From NCBI GenBank assembly GCA_039927835.1, contig JBDSUF010000035.1, positions 83,453-147,452 on the forward strand: a DNA stretch of 64,000 bases, written 5' to 3'. Below are positions 14,733 to 24,096 of this stretch, piece after piece. How positions within the stretch are numbered: position 1 is the stretch's first letter; every line of letters starts with the position of its first letter. Origin of the DNA: Alteraurantiacibacter sp. Lineage in GTDB: Bacteria > Pseudomonadota > Alphaproteobacteria > Sphingomonadales > Sphingomonadaceae. The notes beneath the pieces were generated by a model that was not told the origin of the DNA, made no database searches, and saw nothing but the letters and a program-made list of their open reading frames with translations. A program made the translations under genes and the position numbers.

Positions 14733-15604
14733 AGTACCATGTGCGGCACGTCACGCAGGTCAAATACGAGGGCACGGTCAATCTGGCGCGCTTCAACCTG
14801 CGGCTGAAGCCGTCGCGCTGGCCGGGGCAGGTGCTGGGCGATTACCGGCTGGCGGTGACACCGCAGCCGCGGGTGATCGTTGAGGAGAGCGGGCCGTTCC
14901 TCGTCAATGTGGAGCGGTTGACGCTCGATCAGCCGACCGCCAGCCTGACCGTGACGAGCGAGTTCACGGTGACGGTGGAAGCGGCGGCGCTGCCGCTCGC
15001 CTATGTCGCGCCTGATCTGGCCGAGGTGAGGCAACAGGCGCTGGCCGATCGCGGGCTGGGTCCGGTCGATCCGGCGAGCTACCTGTTCGCATCGCCGATG
15101 GCGGGAATGGTCCCGGCGATTGACGATTGGGCGCGCGCGCGCCTGCCTGCCGGTGGCACGGTAATCGATGCGGCGGCGGCGCTGATGCACGCGATCCACG
15201 CGGAATTCGCCTATGATGGCAAGGCCACCAAGGCCGATACGCCGCCCGCGCAGGCTTTCGCCGCGCGGCGCGGGGTGTGCCAGGACTTCGCCCACATCAT
15301 GATCATCGCGCTGCGCCAGATCGGTGTGCCCGCGGCCTATGTCAGCGGTTACCTGCGGACCAATCCGCCTCCCGGCAAGGCGCGGCTGGTGGGCGCCGAT
15401 GCGACGCACGCTTGGGTCAACGTGTGGTGCGGGCGGGCGATCGGCTGGGTCGGGTTCGACCCGACCAATGCCATGATGGCGGGGACCGATCACATCTTCA
15501 CCGCCATGGGGCGCGATTTCGCCGATGTCTCGCCGCTCGACGGGGTGTTTATCGGGCCGGCGGGCCAGCGGATGACAGTGTCGGTGCAAGTGACGCCGCT
15601 TTAG
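14729..15604 (+). CDS. Transglutaminase family protein
   Basis: YHVRHVTQVKY N-domain; triad GVCQDFAH / THAWV / FDPTN. ATGA coupling to the ATP-grasp gene. Confidence 0.9.
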   Translation: MKYHVRHVTQVKYEGTVNLARFNLRLKPSRWPGQVLGDYRLAVTPQPRVIVEESGPFLVNVERLTLDQPTASLTVTSEFTVTVEAAALPLAYVAPDLAEVRQQALADRGLGPVDPASYLFASPMAGMVPAIDDWARARLPAGGTVIDAAAALMHAIHAEFAYDGKATKADTPPAQAFAARRGVCQDFAHIMIIALRQIGVPAAYVSGYLRTNPPPGKARLVGADATHAWVNVWCGRAIGWVGFDPTNAMMAGTDHIFTAMGRDFADVSPLDGVFIGPAGQRMTVSVQVTPL

Positions 15605-17286
15605 AGGGCTGTCAGATCCGTCAGTCGTCCGCAGGCCGGGATCGTCGTGCCCTTGACAAGGTAGGCCTCCAGCGCGTCGAGATCGACCCCCGCCTCGCCC
15701 ACCGTGGGCCGCTGCACCAGGCTGGCGAACCCGTCACCACCGTTGGCGAGGAAGTTGTTGAACACGATCGTGTACCGCTCCGCCGGGTCGATCGGCGCAC
15801 CGTCCAGCACGATATCGACGATGCGCTGGCCGCGCGGCCGGTTGCGGTCATAGCTGTAGGCCAGCGTGGATGACGGAGCGAGCAGCGTCGAGCACGGCGT
15901 CGCCGGACCCTCGTTGCAGAACTGCTCCTCCAGCGCCAGCCGCAGCTCGGCGCCGTTCAGTTCGAGCACCTGCAACGTGTTGCCGAACGGCTGCATGGCG
16001 AAAATCTCGCCGTAGGTCATAGCCCCGTCGGCGGCGGCATCGAGGTTGGTGCGCACGCCGCTGGTGTTGATGAAGGCTATGTCCACCTCGTCCCCAAGCG
16101 CGGTGCGCGCTGCGGCGAGCTGCGCATCGGCCACCAGATTGGCGGCGGGTGTTTCCACACAGTCACCCTCGCTGCCCGTCGCCGGAGACAGCGTGCCGAC
16201 CGCGCGAGCGGCCACGGGACCGGCCGCGGCAACGTAGCGCTCGACCAGCGCGGCGACGTCGGCGCGGGTGCCCAGCGTGCCGTTGACGGGCACGTTGATG
16301 GCGGCGATGTCGGTCACGCGGCGGGTGGTCTGGTCCCAGGTCAGGCGGATGTCGGTGACGAAGCTGCCGAACCGCCCGGCGCTCGACAAAAGGCGCGGGC
16401 TGCCGTCGGCGAGGTCCATGCGGCAGATGTACGACATGTGCGTATGACCCGAGACGACCAGGCTGATCGCTGGATCGAGCCGCTCGATGATCGGCAGGAT
16501 CGGGCCGTAAAGTCCCGGGCAGCCCGACAGGTTCTGCGACGGATCGACCCGGCCGCCTTCGTGGATCAGCAGGACCACGGTATCGGCCCCCTGCGCCGTC
16601 ACTTCGCGCGCTAGCCGATTGGCGGCATCGGCCTCGTCGGTGAAGCGATAGCCGCGCGTCATGGCGGGCGAAACGAGCGTCGCCGTGCCCGTCAGAGTGA
16701 GCCCGATGAAGCCGACCTTGAGCGGGCCGACCTGGCGCAGGCTGGCACCGGGAAACAGCGATGCTCCCCCGGCGTCGATCACGTTGCCGGCGAGGTAGGC
16801 AAAGCCGGCTCCGGTAAACGGTTCGAGCGCGCAAGGCTGGCGCAGCGTGTTCTGTTCGCAGCCGCCGTCCTGCAACCGGCGCAGTTCGGCGGTGCCACGG
16901 TCGAACTCGTGATTGCCCACCGAAGCGACCTGCAGCCCGGCTAGGTCGAGCGCGGCGATCGAAGGCTCGTCGAGGAAGTTGGCCGAGGCGAACGGCGAGG
17001 CTCCGATCAGGTCGCCCGCCGCCACCGTAACGGTGGCGTCCTGCCCCCGCCGCAAGGCGTCGAGCGTGGCCGCGAGCCGCGCCGCGCCGCCCAGTGCCTC
17101 GCGGACCACCTCGTCACCCCGGCGATAGCTGGTGGTTGAGCCCGGCGTTTCGAGGTTTCCGTGGAAATCGTTGAGCGCTAGCACCTGGACTTCGACCGGA
17201 CCCGAGGCGGTGGGCGCGGGAACGGTGGCGCAGCCGGCCAGCAAACTGGCGAGCATGGTGGCTATAACGGGGCGCGGGGCAGGCAT
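15601..17286 (-). CDS. Lipoprotein bifunctional metallophosphatase/5'-nucleotidase
   Basis: Lipobox LLAGC; NDFHG, GDLIG, GNHEFD, IHEG and GHTH motifs; 5'-nucleotidase C-domain (NTSGVR, QPFGN). Confidence 0.9.
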   Translation of the reverse strand: MPAPRPVIATMLASLLAGCATVPAPTASGPVEVQVLALNDFHGNLETPGSTTSYRRGDEVVREALGGAARLAATLDALRRGQDATVTVAAGDLIGASPFASANFLDEPSIAALDLAGLQVASVGNHEFDRGTAELRRLQDGGCEQNTLRQPCALEPFTGAGFAYLAGNVIDAGGASLFPGASLRQVGPLKVGFIGLTLTGTATLVSPAMTRGYRFTDEADAANRLAREVTAQGADTVVLLIHEGGRVDPSQNLSGCPGLYGPILPIIERLDPAISLVVSGHTHMSYICRMDLADGSPRLLSSAGRFGSFVTDIRLTWDQTTRRVTDIAAINVPVNGTLGTRADVAALVERYVAAAGPVAARAVGTLSPATGSEGDCVETPAANLVADAQLAAARTALGDEVDIAFINTSGVRTNLDAAADGAMTYGEIFAMQPFGNTLQVLELNGAELRLALEEQFCNEGPATPCSTLLAPSSTLAYSYDRNRPRGQRIVDIVLDGAPIDPAERYTIVFNNFLANGGDGFASLVQRPTVGEAGVDLDALEAYLVKGTTIPACGRLTDLTAL

Positions 17287-17324
17287 CGGGCTTCCTCTCA
17301 GCGGCGTCAGGCTAGTCGATATGG

Positions 17325-17357
17325 AAAGGCCGCGGAAGTCTTGCGACGCCCGCGGCC
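17325..17357 (-). terminator. Probable weak intrinsic terminator after the Oar-type receptor
   Basis: GGCCGCGG/CCGCGGCC stem with inner GTC-GCAA-GAC hairpin, followed by TTT on the minus strand. Confidence 0.45.
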
Positions 17358-17382
17358 CTGCCGTCAGTCATGATGGACCGGA

Positions 17383-20300
17383 TCAGAACTCGTAACGGGC
17401 GCCGATCTGGATCCGCCACGCGGATGCGGACGTGTTGATCCGTTCCTGATCGTCGGGGTTGAAATCGGTGATGACATAGCGGCCTTGAGCATCGAAGTTG
17501 CCATCGACCAGGTCAACAATCTGACCGTCGCCAAAAACCCCGCGTGAGCGCTGCGTATTCCAGCTGCTGTCCAGGATGTTGAGCACATTGTCGACGTCGG
17601 CGAACAGCTCGATCCTGTCCTCCAGACCGAAGAAATGGCCCGGTCCCGGAACTTCCTGGCTGATCCGCAAGTCGAGATCGTAGACCCAGTCCTCGGTACA
17701 GGTGTTGCGGGCAACGGTGCGCCCTTCGTAACCGTCCGCACAACCCAGATCATCGAGGTAGGCGAGCAGGCTGCTGACGGCTGCCGCGTTGCTGTTTGGC
17801 GACAGGTTCGGATCGGTCGGCCCGGTGGGGATGTACAGCCGCGCGTTGTCACTGCCCGACGCGGTGTCCATGAAGATCGCCGTGCTGCTGCCGCCGTCGA
17901 ACGTCAGTGTGTACGGGCGTCCCGACTGGGCGCTGAAGAACAGGCCCAGCTGGGTGGCAAAATCTTCGTAAAAATCTTCGCGGAAGTTGATCGCCGCCGT
18001 GAAGCGATGACGAGTTTCGTAGTTCGAAGTGCCGACGTCGGGGTTGTTGCGATCGAACTCGCCCGATTCGTCAAAGCTGGATGTCGCGGTCGAGCTGTTG
18101 GCATTGCGGAAGTTGTTAGAATCGGTGAATGCGTAGCCGAAACTGACCGATGTGCCGCCCGTCTCGGTGAACAAACCGCTAGCGAAGCTCTTCGACAGGA
18201 TCAGCGAAACGATGTGGCTGTCGTAGCTCGGCCCGTTGGTGAGCTGGATTTCGTCATCGCGGCTGGTGCCGAAGCAGGCGGCGGTGACGTTGGTGTAACG
18301 CGGCGGGGTGCCGCCCGTGTCAACCAGCGTCGCGTCGCAACCCGCGCGGGTCGGATCAATCGCGCGGTAGATCGGACGGCCATCGACGGTGTAACCGCCC
18401 AGGCCGAGCCGTGGATCGACCACCTGTGAGAGGTCGACGAAGTTCAGCGGGTCGACGAAGTGGCTGTAGACATAGTCGAGGTTGAACCGCCAGCTATCGA
18501 AGAAGCCGCCGCCCACATCGAACGTCGTGTCGATGCCGAGGTTGGCGCGCCACACGGTCGGAACCTTGAAGTTCGGGTCGGTTGACTGGGTGTCGGCCAG
18601 TCCGGCTCCTGACTGAGTCCGCGCCGCTGCGATGACGCAGGCAGGCATGCCGGTGAAGGCGCTGCCCGTGACGACATCGAACTGGCCCTGAGCGTTGCGC
18701 AAGCCGTTGCACAGGCTGGCTGTGCTGGTGCCGACACCGGTTGAATAGCCGTTGTTGGAGAACGCATTCGAGAAATAGACAACCGGATCGCCACCCGAGA
18801 ACACGCCCAGGCCGCCCTTGAACACGGTGTTGCGCAGGAAGGCGCCGTCTTCAACCTCATAGGTCAGACCCAGCCGGGGCATGAAAATCGGGTCGAGATC
18901 ACTGAACGATACGGCATTCGAAAAGCCGTAGCGGGCGATGAAGTTGGGATTCTCACGCGGAGCGCTACCCCGGTACCACTGGGCCCGCAGGCCGGCGATC
19001 ACGCTGAGCCGGTCGGTCGCCTGCCATTCGTCCTGCGCGTACAGCGACCAGATGCGTCGCTCAAAGCGTGCCGCAGCGTCGTTGATGTCGCCACTGTCTG
19101 TAGCCGCAATCACCGCGCCGCCGTTGGCACCGCTGGCGAGATCGTCGGCCGTTCCGAACGGGTTCGGCGTGCCGGTCGACGACGCTACCAAGCCTTGCGA
19201 AAAATCACTGAGGTTACGGAAGAACAGTGTGCCGGTCGCGTTCTGGGCGAACAGGTTGTAGACTTCGAGGTCGTTCAACTCGGCTCCGATCTTGACCCGG
19301 TGGTCGCCGTTGTTCCAGTTCGCTTGAAACTTGTATTGGCCCAATTGGGTGTCGAGCTGGTTCGCCGAGCGCGACAGCCCCGGACCTGTCGAAAGCAGGC
19401 CGTTGACGTCGTCGGCATTGCCGGCAACGCCGTCGGCACCGGGGCCGCGCACGCCTACGACCAAGCGAACGGTTGGGCTATCCGACTGCGCTTCGCCGAA
19501 GCCGACCGGATCCTGCCGGTCACCCACTTCCGACCGGCTGACGCGGACTTCGGTTGAGAAATCCTCGGTCCATTCGGAAAACAGGCGACCAGAGTAGTAA
19601 TTGGAGAGAGTACCTTCAAGGCCGAAGCTGTTATAGCCTGTCAGCTCGTTGCTGCCGGTATCCGAGTAGACATTCTCTTCTTCCAAGCGCTGGTATGTCA
19701 ATTCAAGGCGATGGTTGTCGGTGATGTAGGCGTCGATGCGGCCAAAATAGCGGATGCTCGATTCCGGAAGCGAGGCCGGAAAGCCGCCGATATCCTGTCC
19801 GTAGACGTCGTTGGCGACCTGAGCGAACTGGTCGAACTGGGTTTGGCTGACGAAACGTGCTTCGCTTGGGAAGCCAGATCCCGCAGGCCCGAAGTCGTTG
19901 CTGTCGCCGAGGTCGGTTTGCTCATAGCCGAGGAAGAAAAACAGACGATCCTCTACGATCGGTCCGGAGAGCGTGGCGCCCCAGCGCTTCTCCTGGAACG
20001 GGGCCGGGGTGAAATCCTGCCCATCGACGGTGGAGCCCCGCAGGCTCTGATCGCGATATGTGAAGAAAGCGGAACCGTGGAAATCGTTGGCCCCGGATTT
20101 GGTCACGACGTTGACGAGACAGCCGGTGAAGTCGGAATACTCGACATCGAACGGCGCGAACTCGACCGACGTCTCGCGAATGACATCGAACGGCAGCGGC
20201 AGCGCGTTGCGGGCGGCGAACGGGGTGCCGTTGAGGCCGAAGCTGTCCGCCTGGGTGATGCCGTCAACGGTGAAGGTGTTGGTGCGGTCGTTGCCGCCGA

Positions 20301-20835
20301 GGCAGGAGATGCGATCGACATCACCCTCGCGATCAAGGCTTACGCGCGGGTCGATGCGGATGATGTCGCGAACGTCGCGGTTAATCGACGGGAATGCTTC
20401 CATGGTCTCCGTAGAAAACGCCAGGCCGGGGCCGACTGCGACCTGGGTGGCGCGCACGCGCGCACCGGTGACTACGATCACGCCGCCGCCGCTCGAAAGG
20501 GTGAAGGTCAGGCTGGTGTTACCCTGCAGCGAAGTGATGATGTCGTTGATCGTCTGGCCTTCAAAGCCGGGCGCGGTGACTTCGACGGTGTAGGGGCCGC
20601 CGGTGACCAGGCTGTTGGCGCTGAAGCCGCCGCCATCGCCGGTGGTGAAGGTGCGGGTCGCGCCGGTGCGGGTGTCGGTCACGACCACGCTGGCGCCGCT
20701 GACTGGTGCGCCTGTTTCGTCGCTGACGGTGCCCTCGATGCCCGAGGTGATTTGCTGCGCTGCAACCTGCGGGGCAATGGCCGTGGCCGCAGCAATGCTG
20801 GCAAGGCTCGCGGCCAGGTAAAACTTGATCTTCAT
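17383..20835 (-). CDS. Oar-type TonB-dependent receptor with carboxypeptidase-regulatory-like N-domain
   Basis: Signal peptide MKIKFYLAAS..., QQITSGIEGTV N-domain, IVVTG, NVVTKSGANDFHGSAF, C-terminal RYEF. Start re-assigned to 20835. Confidence 0.92.
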   Translation of the reverse strand: MKIKFYLAASLASIAAATAIAPQVAAQQITSGIEGTVSDETGAPVSGASVVVTDTRTGATRTFTTGDGGGFSANSLVTGGPYTVEVTAPGFEGQTINDIITSLQGNTSLTFTLSSGGGVIVVTGARVRATQVAVGPGLAFSTETMEAFPSINRDVRDIIRIDPRVSLDREGDVDRISCLGGNDRTNTFTVDGITQADSFGLNGTPFAARNALPLPFDVIRETSVEFAPFDVEYSDFTGCLVNVVTKSGANDFHGSAFFTYRDQSLRGSTVDGQDFTPAPFQEKRWGATLSGPIVEDRLFFFLGYEQTDLGDSNDFGPAGSGFPSEARFVSQTQFDQFAQVANDVYGQDIGGFPASLPESSIRYFGRIDAYITDNHRLELTYQRLEEENVYSDTGSNELTGYNSFGLEGTLSNYYSGRLFSEWTEDFSTEVRVSRSEVGDRQDPVGFGEAQSDSPTVRLVVGVRGPGADGVAGNADDVNGLLSTGPGLSRSANQLDTQLGQYKFQANWNNGDHRVKIGAELNDLEVYNLFAQNATGTLFFRNLSDFSQGLVASSTGTPNPFGTADDLASGANGGAVIAATDSGDINDAAARFERRIWSLYAQDEWQATDRLSVIAGLRAQWYRGSAPRENPNFIARYGFSNAVSFSDLDPIFMPRLGLTYEVEDGAFLRNTVFKGGLGVFSGGDPVVYFSNAFSNNGYSTGVGTSTASLCNGLRNAQGQFDVVTGSAFTGMPACVIAAARTQSGAGLADTQSTDPNFKVPTVWRANLGIDTTFDVGGGFFDSWRFNLDYVYSHFVDPLNFVDLSQVVDPRLGLGGYTVDGRPIYRAIDPTRAGCDATLVDTGGTPPRYTNVTAACFGTSRDDEIQLTNGPSYDSHIVSLILSKSFASGLFTETGGTSVSFGYAFTDSNNFRNANSSTATSSFDESGEFDRNNPDVGTSNYETRHRFTAAINFREDFYEDFATQLGLFFSAQSGRPYTLTFDGGSSTAIFMDTASGSDNARLYIPTGPTDPNLSPNSNAAAVSSLLAYLDDLGCADGYEGRTVARNTCTEDWVYDLDLRISQEVPGPGHFFGLEDRIELFADVDNVLNILDSSWNTQRSRGVFGDGQIVDLVDGNFDAQGRYVITDFNPDDQERINTSASAWRIQIGARYEF

Positions 20836-20900
20836 GTCGAGTGGGCTCCCCGTCTGGAACTTTTTTCCTGAATGACTGGCATCGCCGCTATGGGTGGCTT

Positions 20901-20918
20901 GTGACAAACGCAAGACAG
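20901..20918 (-). promoter_or_regulatory. Pho-box-like direct repeat CTGTCTT-GCGT-TTGTCAC
   Basis: Two half-sites at 11-bp period, 66 nt upstream of the receptor ATG; an extra CTGTCAC half-site at 20944-20950. Confidence 0.45.
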
Positions 20919-21057
20919 CGACTTGGCGGGATATTCGCCGGTTGTGACAGAATATTTCCGAATTGTTACAAGGGTAATTAATTCGCTGGAAATTCAATGA
21001 TCTTCGTGTGTTGCCGCACTGCAACAGGGTGCAAAATAGTTACGTCGTCCACTATTT

Positions 21058-21993
21058 TCACGTCAGCTTGATCTCGCGCAGGCGTTGCTGGAGGTATTCC
21101 TCGGCCGTGATCGGGGGCAGCGGCGGGTGCTGCGAATCGACGAATTTGGCCATTGGTTCGATCAGGAAATCGGGCCGGAAGTGGAGGAAGAACGGCATCG
21201 AGTAGCGCGGCCGTTGCGCTGCCTCGCCGACCGGGTTCATCACCCGGTGCGAGGTGGAGCGCAGGTGGCCGTTGGTCAGTCGTTGCAGCATGTCGCCGAT
21301 GTTGACCACCAAGGCGCCTTCGGGCGGGGCGACCCAGATCCATTCGTCCTCGGCGGTCTTGAGTTGCAGGCCCGATTCCTCGGCCCCGAGCAGCAGCGTG
21401 ATGGTGTTGATGTCCTCGTGCGCGGCGGCCCGGATAGCGCCTTCGGGCGCGGCCGAGCCATTGGCGGCGGCGAGCGGCGGATAATGCAGCAGGCGCATCA
21501 CCGAATTGCCCTTGTCAACCGATGCAGCGAAGAAGTCGGGAGCCTCGCCCAGGCTCAGCGCGATGGCTTCGAGAATGCGCTGGCCGCTGGCTTCGAAGGC
21601 GGCGTAGATCTCCTCCATCGTCTCGCGGAAGCCCGGAACTTCGCTCGGCCACACGTTGGGCGCCATGAACTGTTCGAGCGGATCGCCCGGCGGCAGCGTG
21701 CGGCCCACGTGCCAGAATTCCTTGAGGTCGATCACCGTCGCGTCCTTGGCCTGCTCGGTGCCGAACGGGGTGTAGCCGCGCGCGCCGCCTTTGCCCGCCA
21801 GGCGGTACTGGCGCTTCACCTCCTCCGGCAGGGCGAAGAAGGCGCGGCACATGGCCCAGGCGCGGGCGATCAGGTCAGCTGGAATGCCGTGATCGCGCAC
21901 CACGCCGAAGCCGGTCTCGGCAAACGAGCGGCCCAGTTCGTCGGCGATCTCCTCCAGCGGGCGGTCGAGCGAGACGGAAGCGATGGTGGGCAT
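21058..21993 (-). CDS. 2OG-Fe(II) dioxygenase (IPNS/DIOX_N family)
   Basis: GFGVVRDHGI, RGYTPFG, RLLHYPP, HED (HxD), HRV and RYS (RxS) motifs. Confidence 0.9.
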   Translation of the reverse strand: MPTIASVSLDRPLEEIADELGRSFAETGFGVVRDHGIPADLIARAWAMCRAFFALPEEVKRQYRLAGKGGARGYTPFGTEQAKDATVIDLKEFWHVGRTLPPGDPLEQFMAPNVWPSEVPGFRETMEEIYAAFEASGQRILEAIALSLGEAPDFFAASVDKGNSVMRLLHYPPLAAANGSAAPEGAIRAAAHEDINTITLLLGAEESGLQLKTAEDEWIWVAPPEGALVVNIGDMLQRLTNGHLRSTSHRVMNPVGEAAQRPRYSMPFFLHFRPDFLIEPMAKFVDSQHPPLPPITAEEYLQQRLREIKLT

Positions 21994-22012
21994 TGTCGTT
22001 GAAGTCCTTCGA

Positions 22013-23338
22013 TCACACGGGCAGGAGCAGGCCGGCCAGCGCGGCGCTCATCAGGTTGGCAAGGGTACCTGCGGCGAGCGCCTTGAGGCCCAGGCGGGCG
22101 ATCACCGGGCGCTGGTTGGGGGCGAGGCCGCCGGTCACCGCCATCTGGATGGCGATCGAGCTCAAGTTGGCAAATCCGCACAGCGCGAAGACCACGATCG
22201 AGCGGCTCCGTTCGCTCAGCGCATCGGCCGGCAGGCCCTGCAGGTCGATAAAGGCGACGAATTCGTTGAGGACCATCTTGGTGCCGAACAGCCCGCCGGC
22301 CACTTGCGCCTCCTGCCAAGGAATGCCCAGCAGCAGCATGACGGGGGCGAGCACGTGGCCGAGCAGGCCCTGGAAGGTGAGGTCCGGAAAGCCGACCAGC
22401 CCGCCCAGCCAGCCGAGCAGGCCGTTCGCCAGAGCCACCAGCGCCACGAAGGCCAGCACCATCGCGCCCACCGACACCGCCAGCTTGAGCCCGGTCTGCG
22501 CGCCTTGTGCGGCCGCCTCGATGATGTTGGCCGCGCCTTCGTCGTGATCGTCGAGCGTTTCGGCCACGGTGACCTCGTGCGGTTTCGAGCCGCCTTCGGT
22601 AATCGCCGCCGGCCCTTCGGCGCTGATCCGCCCATGCGGCAATTCCACTTCGGCTGAGTGCGTATGCAGCGGCGGGCCATCGTCTGGCATCATGATCTTG
22701 GCCATCAGAATGCCGCCAGGGGCGGACATGAAGGCGGCCGCGAGCAGGGCAGGGAGGTAGGCGTTGCCCAGCAGCCCGGCGTAGGCGGCCAGGATCGTGC
22801 CCGCGACCCCCGCCATGCCCACGGTCATCAGCGTGAAGATGCCCGAGGGGGTCATGGCCGCAAGATAGGGCCGCACGACCAAGGGACTTTCCGACTGGCC
22901 GACGAAGATGTTGGCCGCCGCGCCGAGCGCCTCCACCCGGTCGATCCCGGTAATCCACCCGATCGCGCCGCCAAGCCAGCGCACGATGCGTTGCATGATG
23001 CCGAGGTGGTAGAGGATCGAGACCAGCGCAGCGAAGAAGATGATCACCGGCAGCGCGCCCACGGCGAAGGTCCCGGCCAAGGGGTTGTTTTCGGGCGAGC
23101 CGAGCAGGAAGGCGGTGCCCTCGCCGGCATAGGAGAGCAGCGCCGCCACCCCGTTGGCCAGCGTCTGGATCACCGCCGCGCCGCCGGTGGTGCGGAGGAT
23201 CAGCAGCGCCAGCCCCGCCTGCAGCGCAAAGGCCGCGCCGACCACGCGCAGGCGGACGCGCTTGCGGCCACTCGACAGGAGCACGGCGAAAGCCAGGATC
23301 GCGACGATCCCGATCAGGCTGATCACTTGCGGTTGCAC
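22013..23338 (-). CDS. nupC: NupC/NupG (CNT) nucleoside transporter
   Basis: [47 protein letters not shown] start at 23338 with AGGAG upstream. Confidence 0.92.
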
Positions 23339-23439
23339 ACCCACTCCTGCCCCTTATGGAAAGCAGCTTCATCGCCGGGCCTGCCGTAAAGGTCAACGGC
23401 GGGCTTGCTGGAATTGCCAAGCAACCCTAGCAAGGCGGC

Positions 23440-24096
23440 ATGACTGAAGCACCCGTCACGCCTGCCGCTCCCGTGATCCAGCGTCCGCTGCTGATGCTGG
23501 CGCTGCTCTATGGCGGGATGACCTGCATCGCCGGCGTGCTGGGATCGAAGCAGGTGGCGCTGGGCCCGCTGGCGGTGGAGGCGGGGATCTTCCCGTTCCT
23601 GCTGCTGGTGTCGATCTCCAGCACCGTGGCGCAGCTTTACGGGCGCGCGATGGCGAACAGCGTGGTGCGCTTCGGCTTCATTCCGCTGACCACCGCAATC
23701 GTGTTGACCTGGTTGGTGCTGCAGTTGCCGACCGATGAGGGCATGTACGAGCCCGCCAAGGAGGCTTTCCCGATCATCCTGGCGCAAAGCGGCCGCCTGA
23801 TGGTCGCCGGGATCATCGCTTACGGCGTGTCGATGTGGCTCAACGTGCAGCTGTTTTCGAAGCTGGCGGGCGTGATGGGTCAGGGCGCGCAAGTGCGCGG
23901 GGCCATTGCCTCGATGCTGAGCCAGGTGGTCGATACGCTGATCTTCATCACCATTGCCTTTTATGGCGTGCGCCCGATCGGCGAACTGCTGCTGGGCCAG
24001 GCGCTGTCGAAGGTGGTGCTGTCCCTGGTGTTCGTGCCGCTGGTGATCACTGGGCTGCTGGCGCTTGCCCGGCGGATGGAGCGGAACGCGCAGTAG
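23440..24096 (+). CDS. yhhQ: Queuosine precursor transporter (YhhQ/VUT family)
   Basis: Multi-TM protein with KQV, EAGIFPF and SMLSQVVDTLIFITIAFYG, characteristic of the VUT family. Confidence 0.85.
   Translation: MTEAPVTPAAPVIQRPLLMLALLYGGMTCIAGVLGSKQVALGPLAVEAGIFPFLLLVSISSTVAQLYGRAMANSVVRFGFIPLTTAIVLTWLVLQLPTDEGMYEPAKEAFPIILAQSGRLMVAGIIAYGVSMWLNVQLFSKLAGVMGQGAQVRGAIASMLSQVVDTLIFITIAFYGVRPIGELLLGQALSKVVLSLVFVPLVITGLLALARRMERNAQ

What the first reader, a model, noticed from the sequence alone, without database searches (positions are those of the whole stretch)
15601..24096. Putative complete nucleotide-to-nucleoside-to-queuosine scavenging locus
Seen: five contiguous genes forming a logical chain. 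An Oar-type TonB receptor (outer membrane), a lipoprotein 5'-nucleotidase (periplasm), NupC (inner membrane) 19 nt from a 2OG-Fe(II) dioxygenase, and a divergent YhhQ queuosine-precursor transporter. Inference: nucleotides or nucleic-acid fragments are imported, dephosphorylated for P, and the nucleosides, including modified ones, are salvaged. I know of no described system combining these parts.
Basis: partly seen in the sequence, partly recalled or inferred. Interest (0 to 1): 0.72.

Follow-up and report, generated by a model that had tools for sequence, protein, structure and literature searches.

The report
Nucleotide and nucleoside scavenging gene cluster
The five genes are real and recur together in the Sphingomonas family as a likely phosphate-starvation-linked system for harvesting outside nucleotides and nucleosides, but the supposed queuosine link rests on a divergent transporter paralog and is not supported.

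Summary
All five genes are present at the stated coordinates. On the minus strand: nupC, 19 nt, a 2OG/Fe(II) oxygenase, an Oar-type TonB receptor (true start 20835) and a lipoprotein 5'-nucleotidase. A Vut_1/YhhQ-like gene is divergent.

Comparative genomics splits the locus into modules. The conserved core is the divergent pair yhhQ-like<>nupC. In 107 Sphingomonadaceae genomes, 94 have both, 12 neither and 1 only one; 87 of 94 pairs are adjacent and all 87 divergent. The oxygenase is a family-wide core gene (104/107). It is the closest relative of PDB 3OOX, whose function is unknown, and lies beside nupC in only 44/94 genomes. TonB receptors of three types, the 5'-nucleotidase, uridine kinase, LOG and AMP nucleosidase join the locus in different lineages. 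The receptor promoters carry Pho-box-like repeats like those upstream of pstS.

The queuosine reading fails several tests:
- The window's "YhhQ" is a fast-evolving, family-restricted paralog.
- The canonical transporter lies elsewhere in the genome, and its orthologs sit beside queA-tgt-queG in other Alphaproteobacteria.
- The genome makes Q de novo (six of seven genes found; queD not detected), and its TGT is preQ1-type.
- No riboswitch or QueK-type hydrolase was found.

Verdict: a new variant of known nucleotide scavenging. The functions of the oxygenase and the paralog remain open.

The parts
15601..17286 (-). Lipoprotein 5'-nucleotidase of the UshA/YfkN C-half type (561 aa). Signal peptide with lipobox LLAG|C and Ala at +2.
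   Evidence: Pfam Metallophos + 5_nucleotid_C. Best NCBIfam hits are 5'-nucleotidase models, not CpdB models. The motifs NDFHG, GD, GNHE and GHTH can be read in the translation. Found in 16 of 80 related loci, in three different positions.
17287..17382 (-). Receptor-to-nucleotidase spacer: a 10-bp GC hairpin followed by UUU, then a GAGAGGAAG ribosome-binding site.
   Evidence: Sequence and fold. The fold is no more stable than shuffles (z = -0.58), so a terminator or attenuator role is only inferred.
17383..20835 (-). Oar-type TonB-dependent outer-membrane receptor (1150 aa from MKIKFYLAAS; C-terminal ...ARYEF).
   Evidence: Pfam CarboxypepD_reg, OMP_b-brl_4 and TonB_dep_Rec_b-barrel. A receptor lies directly after the oxygenase in 30 of 80 loci and after a uridine kinase gene in 13 more; it is of Oar-like (about 30% or 53-85% identical) or classic Plug type. 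GC is 0.61 against 0.68 in the flanks.
20901..20918 (-). Pho-box-like direct repeat CTGTCTT-gcgt-TTGTCAC, 66-83 nt upstream of the receptor start. A further CTGTCAC lies at 20944-20950.
   Evidence: The same 11-bp-period repeats occur upstream of locus receptors in relatives: at least 11/14 matches in 23/28 Oar-type and 9/23 classic receptors, against 2.5% of shuffles and 0-3% upstream of nupC, yhhQ, LOG, udk, amn and PanE (2 of 16 upstream of nt5; 12 of 80 upstream of the oxygenase gene). The motif type matches that upstream of pstS in this genome and in most of 29 family genomes read.
21009..21026 (.). Perfect palindrome TGTTGC-N6-GCAACA just after the oxygenase stop codon. Candidate protein-binding site; binder unknown.
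   Evidence: The core GTTGC-N6-GCAAC is invariant in the arms and free in the spacer. It holds this position in 27 related loci (24 flanked by a receptor gene, 3 at contig ends). The genome has 4 perfect 18-mers against about 0.09 expected.
21058..21993 (-). 2OG/Fe(II) oxygenase (311 aa) of the 3OOX subfamily. Substrate unknown.
   Evidence: DIOX_N + 2OG-FeII_Oxy. Hit to PDB 3OOX at E = 4e-90; that entry is a 'putative' oxygenase, listed as undefined function in PMC10467617. The H-x-D...H and R-x-S motifs are present. Present in 104/107 family genomes and beside nupC in 44/94.
22013..23344 (-). NupC/CNT nucleoside:cation symporter (443 aa), probably co-transcribed with the oxygenase.
   Evidence: Pfam Nucleos_tra2_N, Gate and Nucleos_tra2_C; TIGR00804 at 406 bits. 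Two aligned blocks to vcCNT (3TIJ), E = 6e-100, with the aligned stretches GQSE, NEF and FANLSS kept; I recall these as vcCNT's nucleoside contacts. The only copy in the genome.
23345..23439 (.). Shared 95-nt control region with back-to-back sigma-70-like promoters. nupC: TTGACC (23391-23396, minus strand), 17 nt, GATGAA (23368-23373). yhhQ-like: CTTGCT (23404-23409), 17 nt, CTAGCA (23427-23432). The yhhQ-like leader is only about 8 nt, so there is no room for a riboswitch.
   Evidence: Sequence. Both hexamer pairs are conserved in relatives. Rfam is negative even at E = 10. Promoter assignment is inferred.
23440..24096 (+). Divergent Vut_1/COG1738 paralog (218 aa), annotated in databases as 'queuosine precursor transporter'. 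Co-inherited with nupC; substrate unknown.

Best explanation
The stretch is a modular locus for scavenging nucleotides and nucleosides from outside the cell. It is typical of Sphingomonadaceae (GTDB sense, Erythrobacteraceae included).

Module B (inferred to be phosphate-starvation inducible). A promoter with a Pho-box-like site drives an Oar-type TonB-dependent receptor followed by an outer-membrane-directed lipoprotein 5'-nucleotidase. Together they would capture nucleotides or other nucleoside phosphates at the envelope, release phosphate for Pst uptake, and leave free nucleosides.

Module A (the conserved core). NupC has an intact nucleoside-binding pocket of the Vibrio cholerae CNT type and imports the nucleosides. 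A divergently transcribed, lineage-specific Vut_1 paralog is always gained and lost together with nupC. It most likely carries a related small molecule, and a nucleobase is the simplest guess.

In the Erythrobacter-type lineage nupC is co-transcribed with a 3OOX-family 2OG/Fe(II) oxygenase. Its substrate is unknown but probably derives from a nucleoside or base. Inside the cell, other lineages add uridine kinase, LOG, AMP nucleosidase and cytidine deaminase to the same locus. That points to processing by phosphorylation followed by cleavage of the nucleotide N-glycosidic bond.

Shown: gene identities, motifs, synteny, co-occurrence, paralogy and cis-motifs. Inferred: all substrates, Pho control, and coupling between the modules.
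For: - Gene identities.
- Recurrent, rearranged clustering of the same functional set in 80 loci: own/L002/L003 have the full set; L014 has nt5 on the other side plus amn; Croceibacterium-type loci have a classic receptor plus nt5; Parasphingorhabdus has LOG-nupC-diox-udk-receptor; Sphingomonas-type loci have receptor<-yhhQ<>LOG-nupC-diox-nt5 with amn.
- nupC and the Vut_1 paralog: 94 genomes have both, 12 neither, 1 only one; 87/94 pairs are adjacent and all divergent; losses fall in at least 9 genera, 3 of which also hold members that keep the pair.
- NupC binding motifs intact.
- Pho-box-like repeats specific to the receptor promoters and matching the family's pstS sites.
- Lipobox on the nucleotidase.
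- The known Vibrio cholerae pathway uses UshA-type phosphatases plus NupC for nucleotide and eDNA phosphorus (PMC4714964).
Against: - No experiment or transcript data exist. The genome is a rhizosphere MAG and no RNA runs were found.
- The receptor's ligand is unknown, and receptor genes are abundant in this family, so some adjacency could be inherited chance.
- The receptor type changes between lineages.
- The window's Pho-like site matches the E. coli consensus at only 12/14 positions, a score no more frequent in the window than in shuffles. The best genome-wide consensus match lies upstream of a lytic transglycosylase.
- nt5 is in only 16 of 80 loci.
- The oxygenase persists without nupC, and outside the family it has no conserved neighbours.
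- The genome shows no udk, udp, upp, deoABCD or nucleoside hydrolase, so the fate of imported ribonucleosides is unclear.
Confidence: 0.6

Rival explanations
1. First reader's full reading. The locus ends in queuosine salvage: NupC imports queuosine, the YhhQ-like protein imports queuine or preQ bases, and the oxygenase converts queuine to preQ1 by oxidative N-dealkylation, as an aerobic analogue of the radical-SAM lyase QueL.
For: - The Vut_1 protein passes the TIGR00697 cut-off, and characterised family members carry 7-deazaguanines (PMC5372724, PMC11570991).
- It is tightly linked to a nucleoside transporter.
- 2OG oxygenases do catalyse N-dealkylation (general knowledge).
- Because TGT is preQ1-type, a queuine-to-preQ1 step would indeed be needed.
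Against: - The gene is a divergent paralog, and the canonical copy on C31 belongs to the clade that sits beside queA-tgt-queG elsewhere.
- An Asp shared by the two canonical sequences compared is Ser in all nine linked copies aligned.
- De novo Q genes are present.
- No preQ1 riboswitch, and the leader is too short to hold one.
- No QueK-family hydrolase.
- The oxygenase occurs in 10 genomes lacking both transporters and widely outside the family.
- The locus partners (udk, cdd-like, amn, LOG) are general nucleotide enzymes.
Confidence: 0.07
2. There is no functional unit. The stretch holds independent units kept side by side by descent: a Pho-regulated receptor plus phosphatase for some other organophosphate, a housekeeping nucleoside transporter, an unrelated oxygenase, and an unrelated membrane protein.
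For: - The modules have separate promoters.
- Only the receptor promoter carries Pho-like repeats.
- The oxygenase is independent of nupC in half of the family.
- The receptor type is exchangeable.
- The receptor has a lower GC content than its flanks.
Against: - Nucleotide-metabolism genes (nt5, udk, LOG, amn, cdd-like) are recruited to this one locus in different orders and lineages.
- nt5 appears in three different positions relative to the core (L002, L014, L044).
- nupC and the Vut_1 paralog are lost together in at least 9 genera.
Confidence: 0.2
3. The locus serves nucleoside catabolism, with the oxygenase as the key enzyme. The oxygenase hydroxylates an imported nucleoside, for example at C1' or on an N-alkyl group. 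That would release base plus sugar lactone or aldehyde and replace the missing hydrolases and phosphorylases. The Vut_1 paralog would move the released base.
For: - The genome lacks an IU-nucleoside hydrolase, deoA, deoD, udp, udk and upp.
- nupC and the oxygenase form an operon with a 19-nt gap.
- The oxygenase lies directly beside LOG without nupC in G389 and G497, and beside udk or a cdd-like gene elsewhere.
- Fungal thymine 7-hydroxylase has the same domain architecture and keeps R190, E122 and F292 equivalents.
Against: - Three of the six thymine-contact positions of T7H differ (Tyr217 to Ile, Asn294 to His, Asn87 to Arg).
- Orthologs outside the family have no nucleoside-related neighbours.
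- tdk is present, so a fungal-type deoxynucleoside rescue is not needed.
- No biochemical data exist for any member.
Confidence: 0.1

Closest known systems
Vibrio cholerae extracellular nucleotide/eDNA phosphorus pathway (UshA, CpdB and PhoX phosphatases plus NupC transporters; PMC4714964)
   Same: A periplasm-side 5'-nucleotidase of the same superfamily removes phosphate, and CNT/NupC carriers take up the nucleosides. Both are linked to phosphate limitation.
   Different: In Vibrio the genes are scattered and nucleotides are thought to cross the outer membrane passively. Here the genes are clustered with a TonB-dependent receptor, a Vut_1 paralog and a 2OG oxygenase. Pho control here is only inferred from sequence.
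TonB-receptor-centred nutrient utilisation loci (Xanthomonas/Caulobacter 'CUT' loci; the Bacteroides ribose/nucleoside 'rus' PUL). Recalled from general knowledge.
   Same: Same architecture: an outer-membrane TonB transporter, an envelope hydrolase, an inner-membrane carrier and cytoplasmic enzymes in one locus.
   Different: The presumed substrate class is nucleotides rather than glycans. No regulator gene lies in the locus. The receptor is Oar-type with a carboxypeptidase-regulatory-like N-terminal domain.
QPTR/YhhQ (COG1738) queuosine-precursor transporters (PMC5372724, PMC11570991, PMC11130926)
   Same: Same Pfam family (Vut_1). The window protein passes the NCBIfam TIGR00697 cut-off.
   Different: It is a separate, long-branch clade found only in Sphingomonadaceae. 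It is about 20% identical to E. coli YhhQ and 24% to the genome's own canonical copy. It is never beside Q genes and has no riboswitch. It is always paired with nupC.
PDB 3OOX (a 'putative 2OG-Fe(II) oxygenase family protein'; I recall it as Caulobacter CC_0200 from a structural-genomics centre) and fungal thymine 7-hydroxylase (5C3P)
   Same: The match to 3OOX covers nearly the full length (E = 4e-90). The architecture is DIOX_N + 2OG-FeII_Oxy, with metal and 2OG ligands conserved. T7H shows that this fold can act on a nucleobase.
   Different: 3OOX has no assigned function. Half of the T7H thymine-contact residues are replaced, so membership in T7H is not supported.

Membership tests
QPTR/YhhQ queuosine-precursor transporter | Sequence membership in Vut_1 / TIGR00697 | tested here: met
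   PF02592 at 110 bits. TIGR00697 at 74.3 bits against a cut-off of 50.95; the genome's C31 copy scores 124.6.
QPTR/YhhQ queuosine-precursor transporter | Orthology with the clade that is characterised or linked to Q genes | tested here: not met
   Separate 100/100 clade on a 2.78 subs/site stem. Class-wide hits outside the family are at most 30% identical. Of 19 loci from other families, 16 hold orthologs of the C31 copy (39-55% identical; the other three match either copy at only 28-29%), and 7 of the 19 lie beside queA-tgt-queG.
QPTR/YhhQ queuosine-precursor transporter | Genomic or regulatory link to Q metabolism (Q genes nearby, preQ1 riboswitch) | tested here: not met
   No Q gene in the window or in 80 related loci. 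Rfam is negative at gathering score and at E = 10.
QPTR/YhhQ queuosine-precursor transporter | Transport of preQ0, preQ1 or queuine | not testable with these tools
   Needs the E. coli complementation and APB-gel assay of PMC5372724.
Bacterial queuosine/queuine salvage (QueK, QueL, Qng1, q-type TGT) | Presence of a Q-nucleoside hydrolase or Q-5'-monophosphate glycosylase, and a TGT able to use queuine | tested here: not met
   PF01156 is absent and the control rang in 6 of 14 genomes. PF10343 is absent but the control was silent, so that part is inconclusive. TGT has GGLAVGE, the preQ1 type by the criterion of PMC11570991. QueL was not searched.
CNT/NupC nucleoside transporter | Three CNT domains and the nucleoside-contact motifs of vcCNT | tested here: met
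   GQSE, NEF and FANLSS are aligned with 3TIJ. That these are the contact residues is recalled from the vcCNT structure paper, not checked here.
UshA-type 5'-nucleotidase | Metallophosphatase motifs plus the 5_nucleotid_C specificity domain; export signal | tested here: met
   The full length aligns to 5'-nucleotidase models, while CpdB models match only the N-terminal domain. Lipobox LLAGC. All NCBIfam scores are below the equivalog cut-offs, so the exact substrate is open.
TonB-dependent receptor (Oar-like) | Signal peptide, N-terminal CarboxypepD_reg domain, 22-strand-type barrel, C-terminal aromatic residue; plug and TonB box | tested here: inconclusive
   Domains, signal peptide and terminal Phe are present. 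No Pfam Plug hit at E <= 0.001, and the TonB box was not examined.
Pho regulon member | PhoB-type tandem 7-nt repeats with 11-bp period at the promoter; induction by phosphate limitation | tested here: inconclusive
   The motif is present, conserved in orthologous promoters and of the same type as the pstS sites. The window site is an imperfect match and expression could not be tested.
Thymine 7-hydroxylase (T7H) | Thymine-contact residues Phe292, Tyr217, Arg190, Asn87, Glu122 and Asn294 (PMC4787775) | tested here: not met
   Arg, Glu and Phe equivalents are kept. Tyr217 is Ile, Asn294 is His and Asn87 is Arg in the phmmer alignment.

The most novel reading that the evidence does not exclude
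The nupC-linked Vut_1 clade is a new-function branch of the 'queuosine precursor transporter' family, carrying a nucleobase or nucleoside-derived compound. The co-transcribed 3OOX-family enzyme is an O2/2OG-dependent nucleoside- or base-processing oxygenase, for example one that oxidatively cleaves an N-glycosidic or N-alkyl bond of ordinary or modified nucleosides. It would stand in for the nucleoside hydrolases and phosphorylases this genome lacks. Upstream, a Pho-controlled TonB receptor would take up nucleotides, a substrate class I know of no TonB-dependent transporter being shown to carry.
Probability: 0.12. Interest if true: 0.8.

Novelty: new variant of a known kind. Interest (0 to 1): 0.5.

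Why it matters
- **Annotation.** A whole clade labelled 'queuosine precursor transporter' in public records is a paralog whose only consistent partner is a nucleoside transporter. Metabolic reconstructions of Q salvage in Sphingomonadaceae should use the other copy.
- **An orphan enzyme family.** The 3OOX family has had a crystal structure for years and is listed as function-undefined in a 2023 review. It is common in Alphaproteobacteria, including genomes of 1.4 Mb. Its neighbours here (nupC, LOG, udk, cdd-like) offer a concrete panel of substrates to test.
- **Outer-membrane uptake.** If the Pho-box-preceded receptor really takes up nucleotides, it would extend TonB-dependent uptake to nucleotides. 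That bears on how abundant soil, rhizosphere and marine Sphingomonadaceae compete for organic phosphorus.

Tried and rejected
- **Riboswitch upstream of the yhhQ-like gene.** Rejected. Rfam is negative. The conserved CTTTTCTTTTG...GCTAGC pattern reads as a -35/-10 promoter lying 8-20 nt before the start codon.
- **Conserved neighbours of the oxygenase outside Sphingomonadaceae.** None found in 12 loci.
- **Fungal-type deoxynucleoside 2'-hydroxylase rescue because thymidine kinase is missing.** Rejected: tdk is present.
- **Membership in T7H.** Not supported.
- **Pho box by E. coli consensus alone.** This was not discriminating. The window count equals the shuffle count, and the best genome hit lies upstream of a lytic transglycosylase. 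The argument therefore rests on conservation in orthologous promoters and on similarity to pstS sites of the family.
- **Palindrome TGTTGC-N6-GCAACA as marker of a nucleoside regulon.** Not supported. Its other copies lie at clpB and beside a histidine kinase.
- **RNA evidence.** Only DNA metagenome runs hold the sequence.
- **Literature and earlier notes.** No paper links NupC, a 2OG oxygenase and YhhQ, or a TonB receptor with a 5'-nucleotidase and NupC. No related earlier notes exist in this scan.
- **Qng1 search.** Uninformative, because the control did not ring.

Full report
**What is there.** The window stretch 15601-24096 holds five genes, as described.

- nupC, 23344-22013 on the minus strand. 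It has all three CNT domains and scores 406 bits to TIGR00804.
- A 2OG/Fe(II) oxygenase, 21993-21058, follows after 19 nt that contain a GAAGGA ribosome-binding site. Its domains are DIOX_N + 2OG-FeII_Oxy.
- An Oar-type TonB-dependent receptor follows after 222 nt of AT-richer DNA. The listed ORF runs to 21024, but the signal peptide MKIKFYLAAS...AQQ places the start at 20835. Its domains are CarboxypepD_reg, OMP_b-brl_4 and the TonB barrel.
- A 5'-nucleotidase, 17286-15601, follows after 96 nt that hold a GC hairpin plus UUU. It has the lipobox LLAG|C and intact metallophosphatase motifs.
- A Vut_1/COG1738 gene, 23440-24096 on the plus strand, is divergent from nupC across 95 nt.

The flanks belong to other systems: a transglutaminase/ATP-grasp operon on the left and malQ/glgP on the right. 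The genome is a 2.9-Mb, 99.99%-complete MAG assembled from rhizosphere metagenomes. Its closest named relative is Alteraurantiacibacter buctensis.

**Is the clustering conserved?** I collected 80 loci carrying the oxygenase ortholog and mapped the other genes on them.

- The two nearest species (L002, L003) keep all five genes in the same order.
- Erythrobacter/Porphyrobacter-type loci have yhhQ-like<>nupC-oxygenase-receptor.
- Croceibacterium-like loci have nupC-oxygenase-classic Plug receptor-nt5.
- Altericroceibacterium xinjiangense (L014) has nt5 on the other side of the yhhQ-like gene and an AMP nucleosidase after the receptor.
- Parasphingorhabdus has yhhQ-like<>LOG-nupC-oxygenase-uridine kinase-receptor.
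- Sphingomonas/Allosphingosinicella-type loci have receptor<-yhhQ-like<>LOG-nupC-oxygenase-nt5, with a convergent AMP nucleosidase.
- L041 also has a cytidine-deaminase-like ORF, judged by eye from its CAE...PCGxCRQ motif.

The same functional set is thus assembled in different orders, which argues for function rather than frozen synteny.

**The core is the pair yhhQ-like<>nupC.** I searched an even sample of 201 genomes of the order, 107 of them in the window's GTDB family.

- The oxygenase is in 104 of the 107 family genomes and in no other family of the order.
- The nupC ortholog and the yhhQ-like gene are both present in 94 genomes, both absent in 12, and only one genome has one without the other. 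Fisher p = 5e-15, not corrected for shared ancestry.
- The 12 genomes that lack both fall in at least 9 genera. Three of those genera have other members that keep the pair.
- In 87 of the 94 genomes the two genes lie within 3.5 kb, and all 87 pairs are divergent.
- The oxygenase lies beside nupC in only 44 of 94 genomes, and ten genomes keep it after losing both transporters.
- In the 'oxygenase alone' loci the downstream PanE neighbour is retained, so the pair appears to have been deleted as a unit.
- Outside the family, oxygenase orthologs (41-58% identity, 12 loci, two of them in 1.4-Mb genomes) have no conserved neighbours.

**The 'YhhQ' is not the queuosine-precursor transporter ortholog.**

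- A class-wide search found close relatives only inside the family; every other hit was at most 30% identical.
- The same search turned up a second COG1738 gene in the window's own genome, at contig C31 40455-41234. That copy scores 124.6 bits to TIGR00697 against 74.3 for the window copy, and the two are 24% identical.
- In 19 loci from other alphaproteobacterial families, the COG1738 gene is an ortholog of the C31 copy in 16 (39-55% identical); the other three match either copy at only 28-29%. In 7 of the 19 it is divergently adjacent to queA-tgt-queG. None lies near nupC.
- A maximum-likelihood tree puts the nupC-linked proteins in a 100/100 clade on a stem of 2.78 substitutions per site, apart from the canonical clade.
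- An Asp present in E. coli YhhQ and in the C31 copy (..TD/GD..) is Ser in the window copy and all eight relatives aligned with it.
- The genome holds tgt, queA (split over two contig ends), queC, queE, a short queF-like hit and queG. queD was not detected with the E. coli query.
- Its TGT reads GGLAVGE, the preQ1 type by the criterion of PMC11570991.
- No known riboswitch matches. The conserved sequence upstream of the gene reads as a -35/-10 pair lying 8-20 nt before the start codon.
- No IU-nucleoside hydrolase (the QueK family) is present, with a working control. The Qng1 search was uninformative.
- The papers on Q-precursor transporters that I read mention neither NupC nor an oxygenase.

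It cannot be excluded outright, because the paralog's substrate is unknown.

**NupC.** It aligns to the Vibrio cholerae CNT (3TIJ) in two blocks (E = 6e-100). The stretches GQSE, NEF and FANLSS are kept, and I recall these as the nucleoside contacts of that structure. A loop of about 37 residues is inserted. It is the only CNT in the genome. This points to an ordinary nucleoside:cation symporter.

**The oxygenase.**

- Its nearest solved structure is 3OOX (E = 4e-90). The depositors call it a putative oxygenase, and a 2023 review lists it among structures with undefined function (PMC10467617).
- Metal and 2OG ligands are intact.
- Against thymine 7-hydroxylase (contact residues from PMC4787775), the Arg190, Glu122 and Phe292 equivalents are kept. 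Tyr217 is Ile, Asn294 is His and Asn87 is Arg. It should not be filed as a T7H.
- Its recurrent neighbours are nupC, uridine kinase, a cdd-like gene and LOG. In two genomes without nupC it lies directly beside LOG. LOG itself is a near-universal single-copy gene in the order (195 of 201 genomes).
- These associations make a nucleoside- or base-derived substrate the best guess, at roughly even odds. Nothing here identifies it.

**Regulation.** The receptor's upstream region holds CTGTCTT-gcgt-TTGTCAC at 20901-20918, with a further CTGTCAC at 20944-20950.

- By the E. coli consensus alone this is unremarkable. The window has 10 such matches against 12 expected, and the best genome-wide match lies upstream of a lytic transglycosylase.
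- The orthologous receptor promoters, however, carry the same 11-bp-period repeats, up to three perfect units. L037 reads CTGTCAC-aaag-CTGTCAT-caat-CAGTCAC.
- Scores of at least 11/14 occur upstream of 23 of 28 Oar-type and 9 of 23 classic receptors in these loci. The rate is 2.5% in shuffles and 0-3% upstream of nupC, yhhQ-like, LOG, udk, amn and PanE. It was 2 of 16 upstream of nt5 and 12 of 80 upstream of the oxygenase gene, where the window scanned is nupC coding sequence.
- The same motif type lies upstream of pstS in this genome (ATGTCCG-gcat-CTGTCTT-tgaa-CCGTAAC) and in most of 29 family genomes read.

I therefore infer, without expression data, that the receptor (and nt5 by read-through or its own start) is phosphate-starvation inducible. 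nupC-oxygenase and the yhhQ-like gene appear to have their own back-to-back sigma-70-type promoters.

A second element is unexplained. A perfect palindrome, TGTTGC-N6-GCAACA (window 21009-21026), sits just after the oxygenase stop. Its arms are invariant and its spacer free in 27 related loci. The genome has four perfect copies against about 0.09 expected. Two of the others lie in the clpB promoter and beside a histidine kinase.

**How it most likely works.** The receptor and the outer-membrane-directed 5'-nucleotidase harvest phosphate from nucleotides at the envelope under phosphate stress. This is inferred, at about 0.6. NupC takes up the nucleosides, and the paired Vut_1 paralog carries a related base-like compound. 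Cytoplasmic processing uses kinases and NMP N-glycosidases: Amn and LOG are present elsewhere in this genome, and udk, LOG, amn and cdd are recruited into the locus in other genera. The genome shows no deoABCD, udp, upp, udk or nucleoside hydrolase. This leaves room for the oxygenase in nucleoside processing, but that step is speculative.

**Comparison with known systems.** Functionally the closest is the Vibrio cholerae nucleotide/eDNA phosphorus pathway, which uses UshA-type phosphatases plus NupC (PMC4714964). In architecture it resembles TonB-receptor-centred utilisation loci. I found no paper describing a receptor + 5'-nucleotidase + NupC locus, nor the nupC<>Vut_1 pairing. I rate it a new variant of a known kind, of moderate interest. 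The concrete, testable leads are the misannotated transporter clade, the orphan 3OOX family, and possible TonB-dependent nucleotide uptake.

Noticed in passing
own genome contig C31:40455-41234 (-), outside the window: A second, canonical COG1738/QPTR gene (TIGR00697 at 124.6 bits). It is the likely true queuosine-precursor transporter of this organism and is 82% identical to the second copy in G130.
   Followed up: yes
window 21009-21026; own genome C35:76496, C30:32968, C25:3177: An 18-bp palindrome, TGTTGC-N6-GCAACA, has 4 perfect copies in the genome against about 0.09 expected. One lies inside the sigma-32-like clpB promoter spacer and one between a cytochrome c gene and a hybrid histidine kinase. 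The binding factor is unknown.
   Followed up: partly
L007 (contig CALRJK020000002.1): A MAG labelled 'Synechococcus sp. UW140' carries a typical Erythrobacteraceae locus (yhhQ-like, nupC, oxygenase, Oar-type receptor; 70% identity for the oxygenase). The contig or bin is probably misassigned.
   Followed up: no
L005:3777-4173 (yhhQ-like/nupC spacer): The spacer is expanded to 331 nt by short tandem repeats: CCTGTCAACGGA three times plus a fourth variant unit, and units of GTGACTTGCCAA and GGCCGAGTTAAT. Relatives with 226-265-nt spacers share a CTGTCACCGGTG element and a conserved ...GCAAACTGCCACGCC block.
   Followed up: no
window 17500-21000: GC content drops to 0.61-0.63 over the receptor gene, against 0.68 in the flanks. 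In relatives this position is filled by at least three receptor types (Oar-like at 53-85% identity, Oar-like at about 30%, and classic Plug type). This suggests repeated replacement of the receptor.
   Followed up: partly
own genome contigs C17 (1-759) and C19 (3-254): queA is split across two contig ends, with tgt 3.8 kb further along C19. This is an assembly break rather than a broken gene.
   Followed up: no
own genome, whole: tblastn with E. coli queries finds tdk and a cdd-like gene but no deoA, deoB, deoC, deoD, udp, upp or uraA. No udk is found with the Parasphingorhabdus query. No PF01156 nucleoside hydrolase is present. This is an unusual nucleoside-salvage gene set for an organism that keeps a uridine-type NupC.
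   Followed up: partly
own genome C25:40255-49077 (-): A Pho cluster reads phoR-like, an OprP-like porin candidate, pstS, pstC, pstA, pstB, phoU and phoB in one direction. Pho-box-like repeats lie upstream of both the porin-like gene and pstS. The phoR-like and porin assignments are by eye only.
   Followed up: partly
G389:C1:1022318-1023836 and G497:C2:292085-293602: In two genomes that lack nupC and the yhhQ-like gene, LOG and the oxygenase lie directly adjacent on the same strand, with gaps of 44 and 52 nt. This hints at a link between LOG and the oxygenase that does not depend on nupC.
   Followed up: partly
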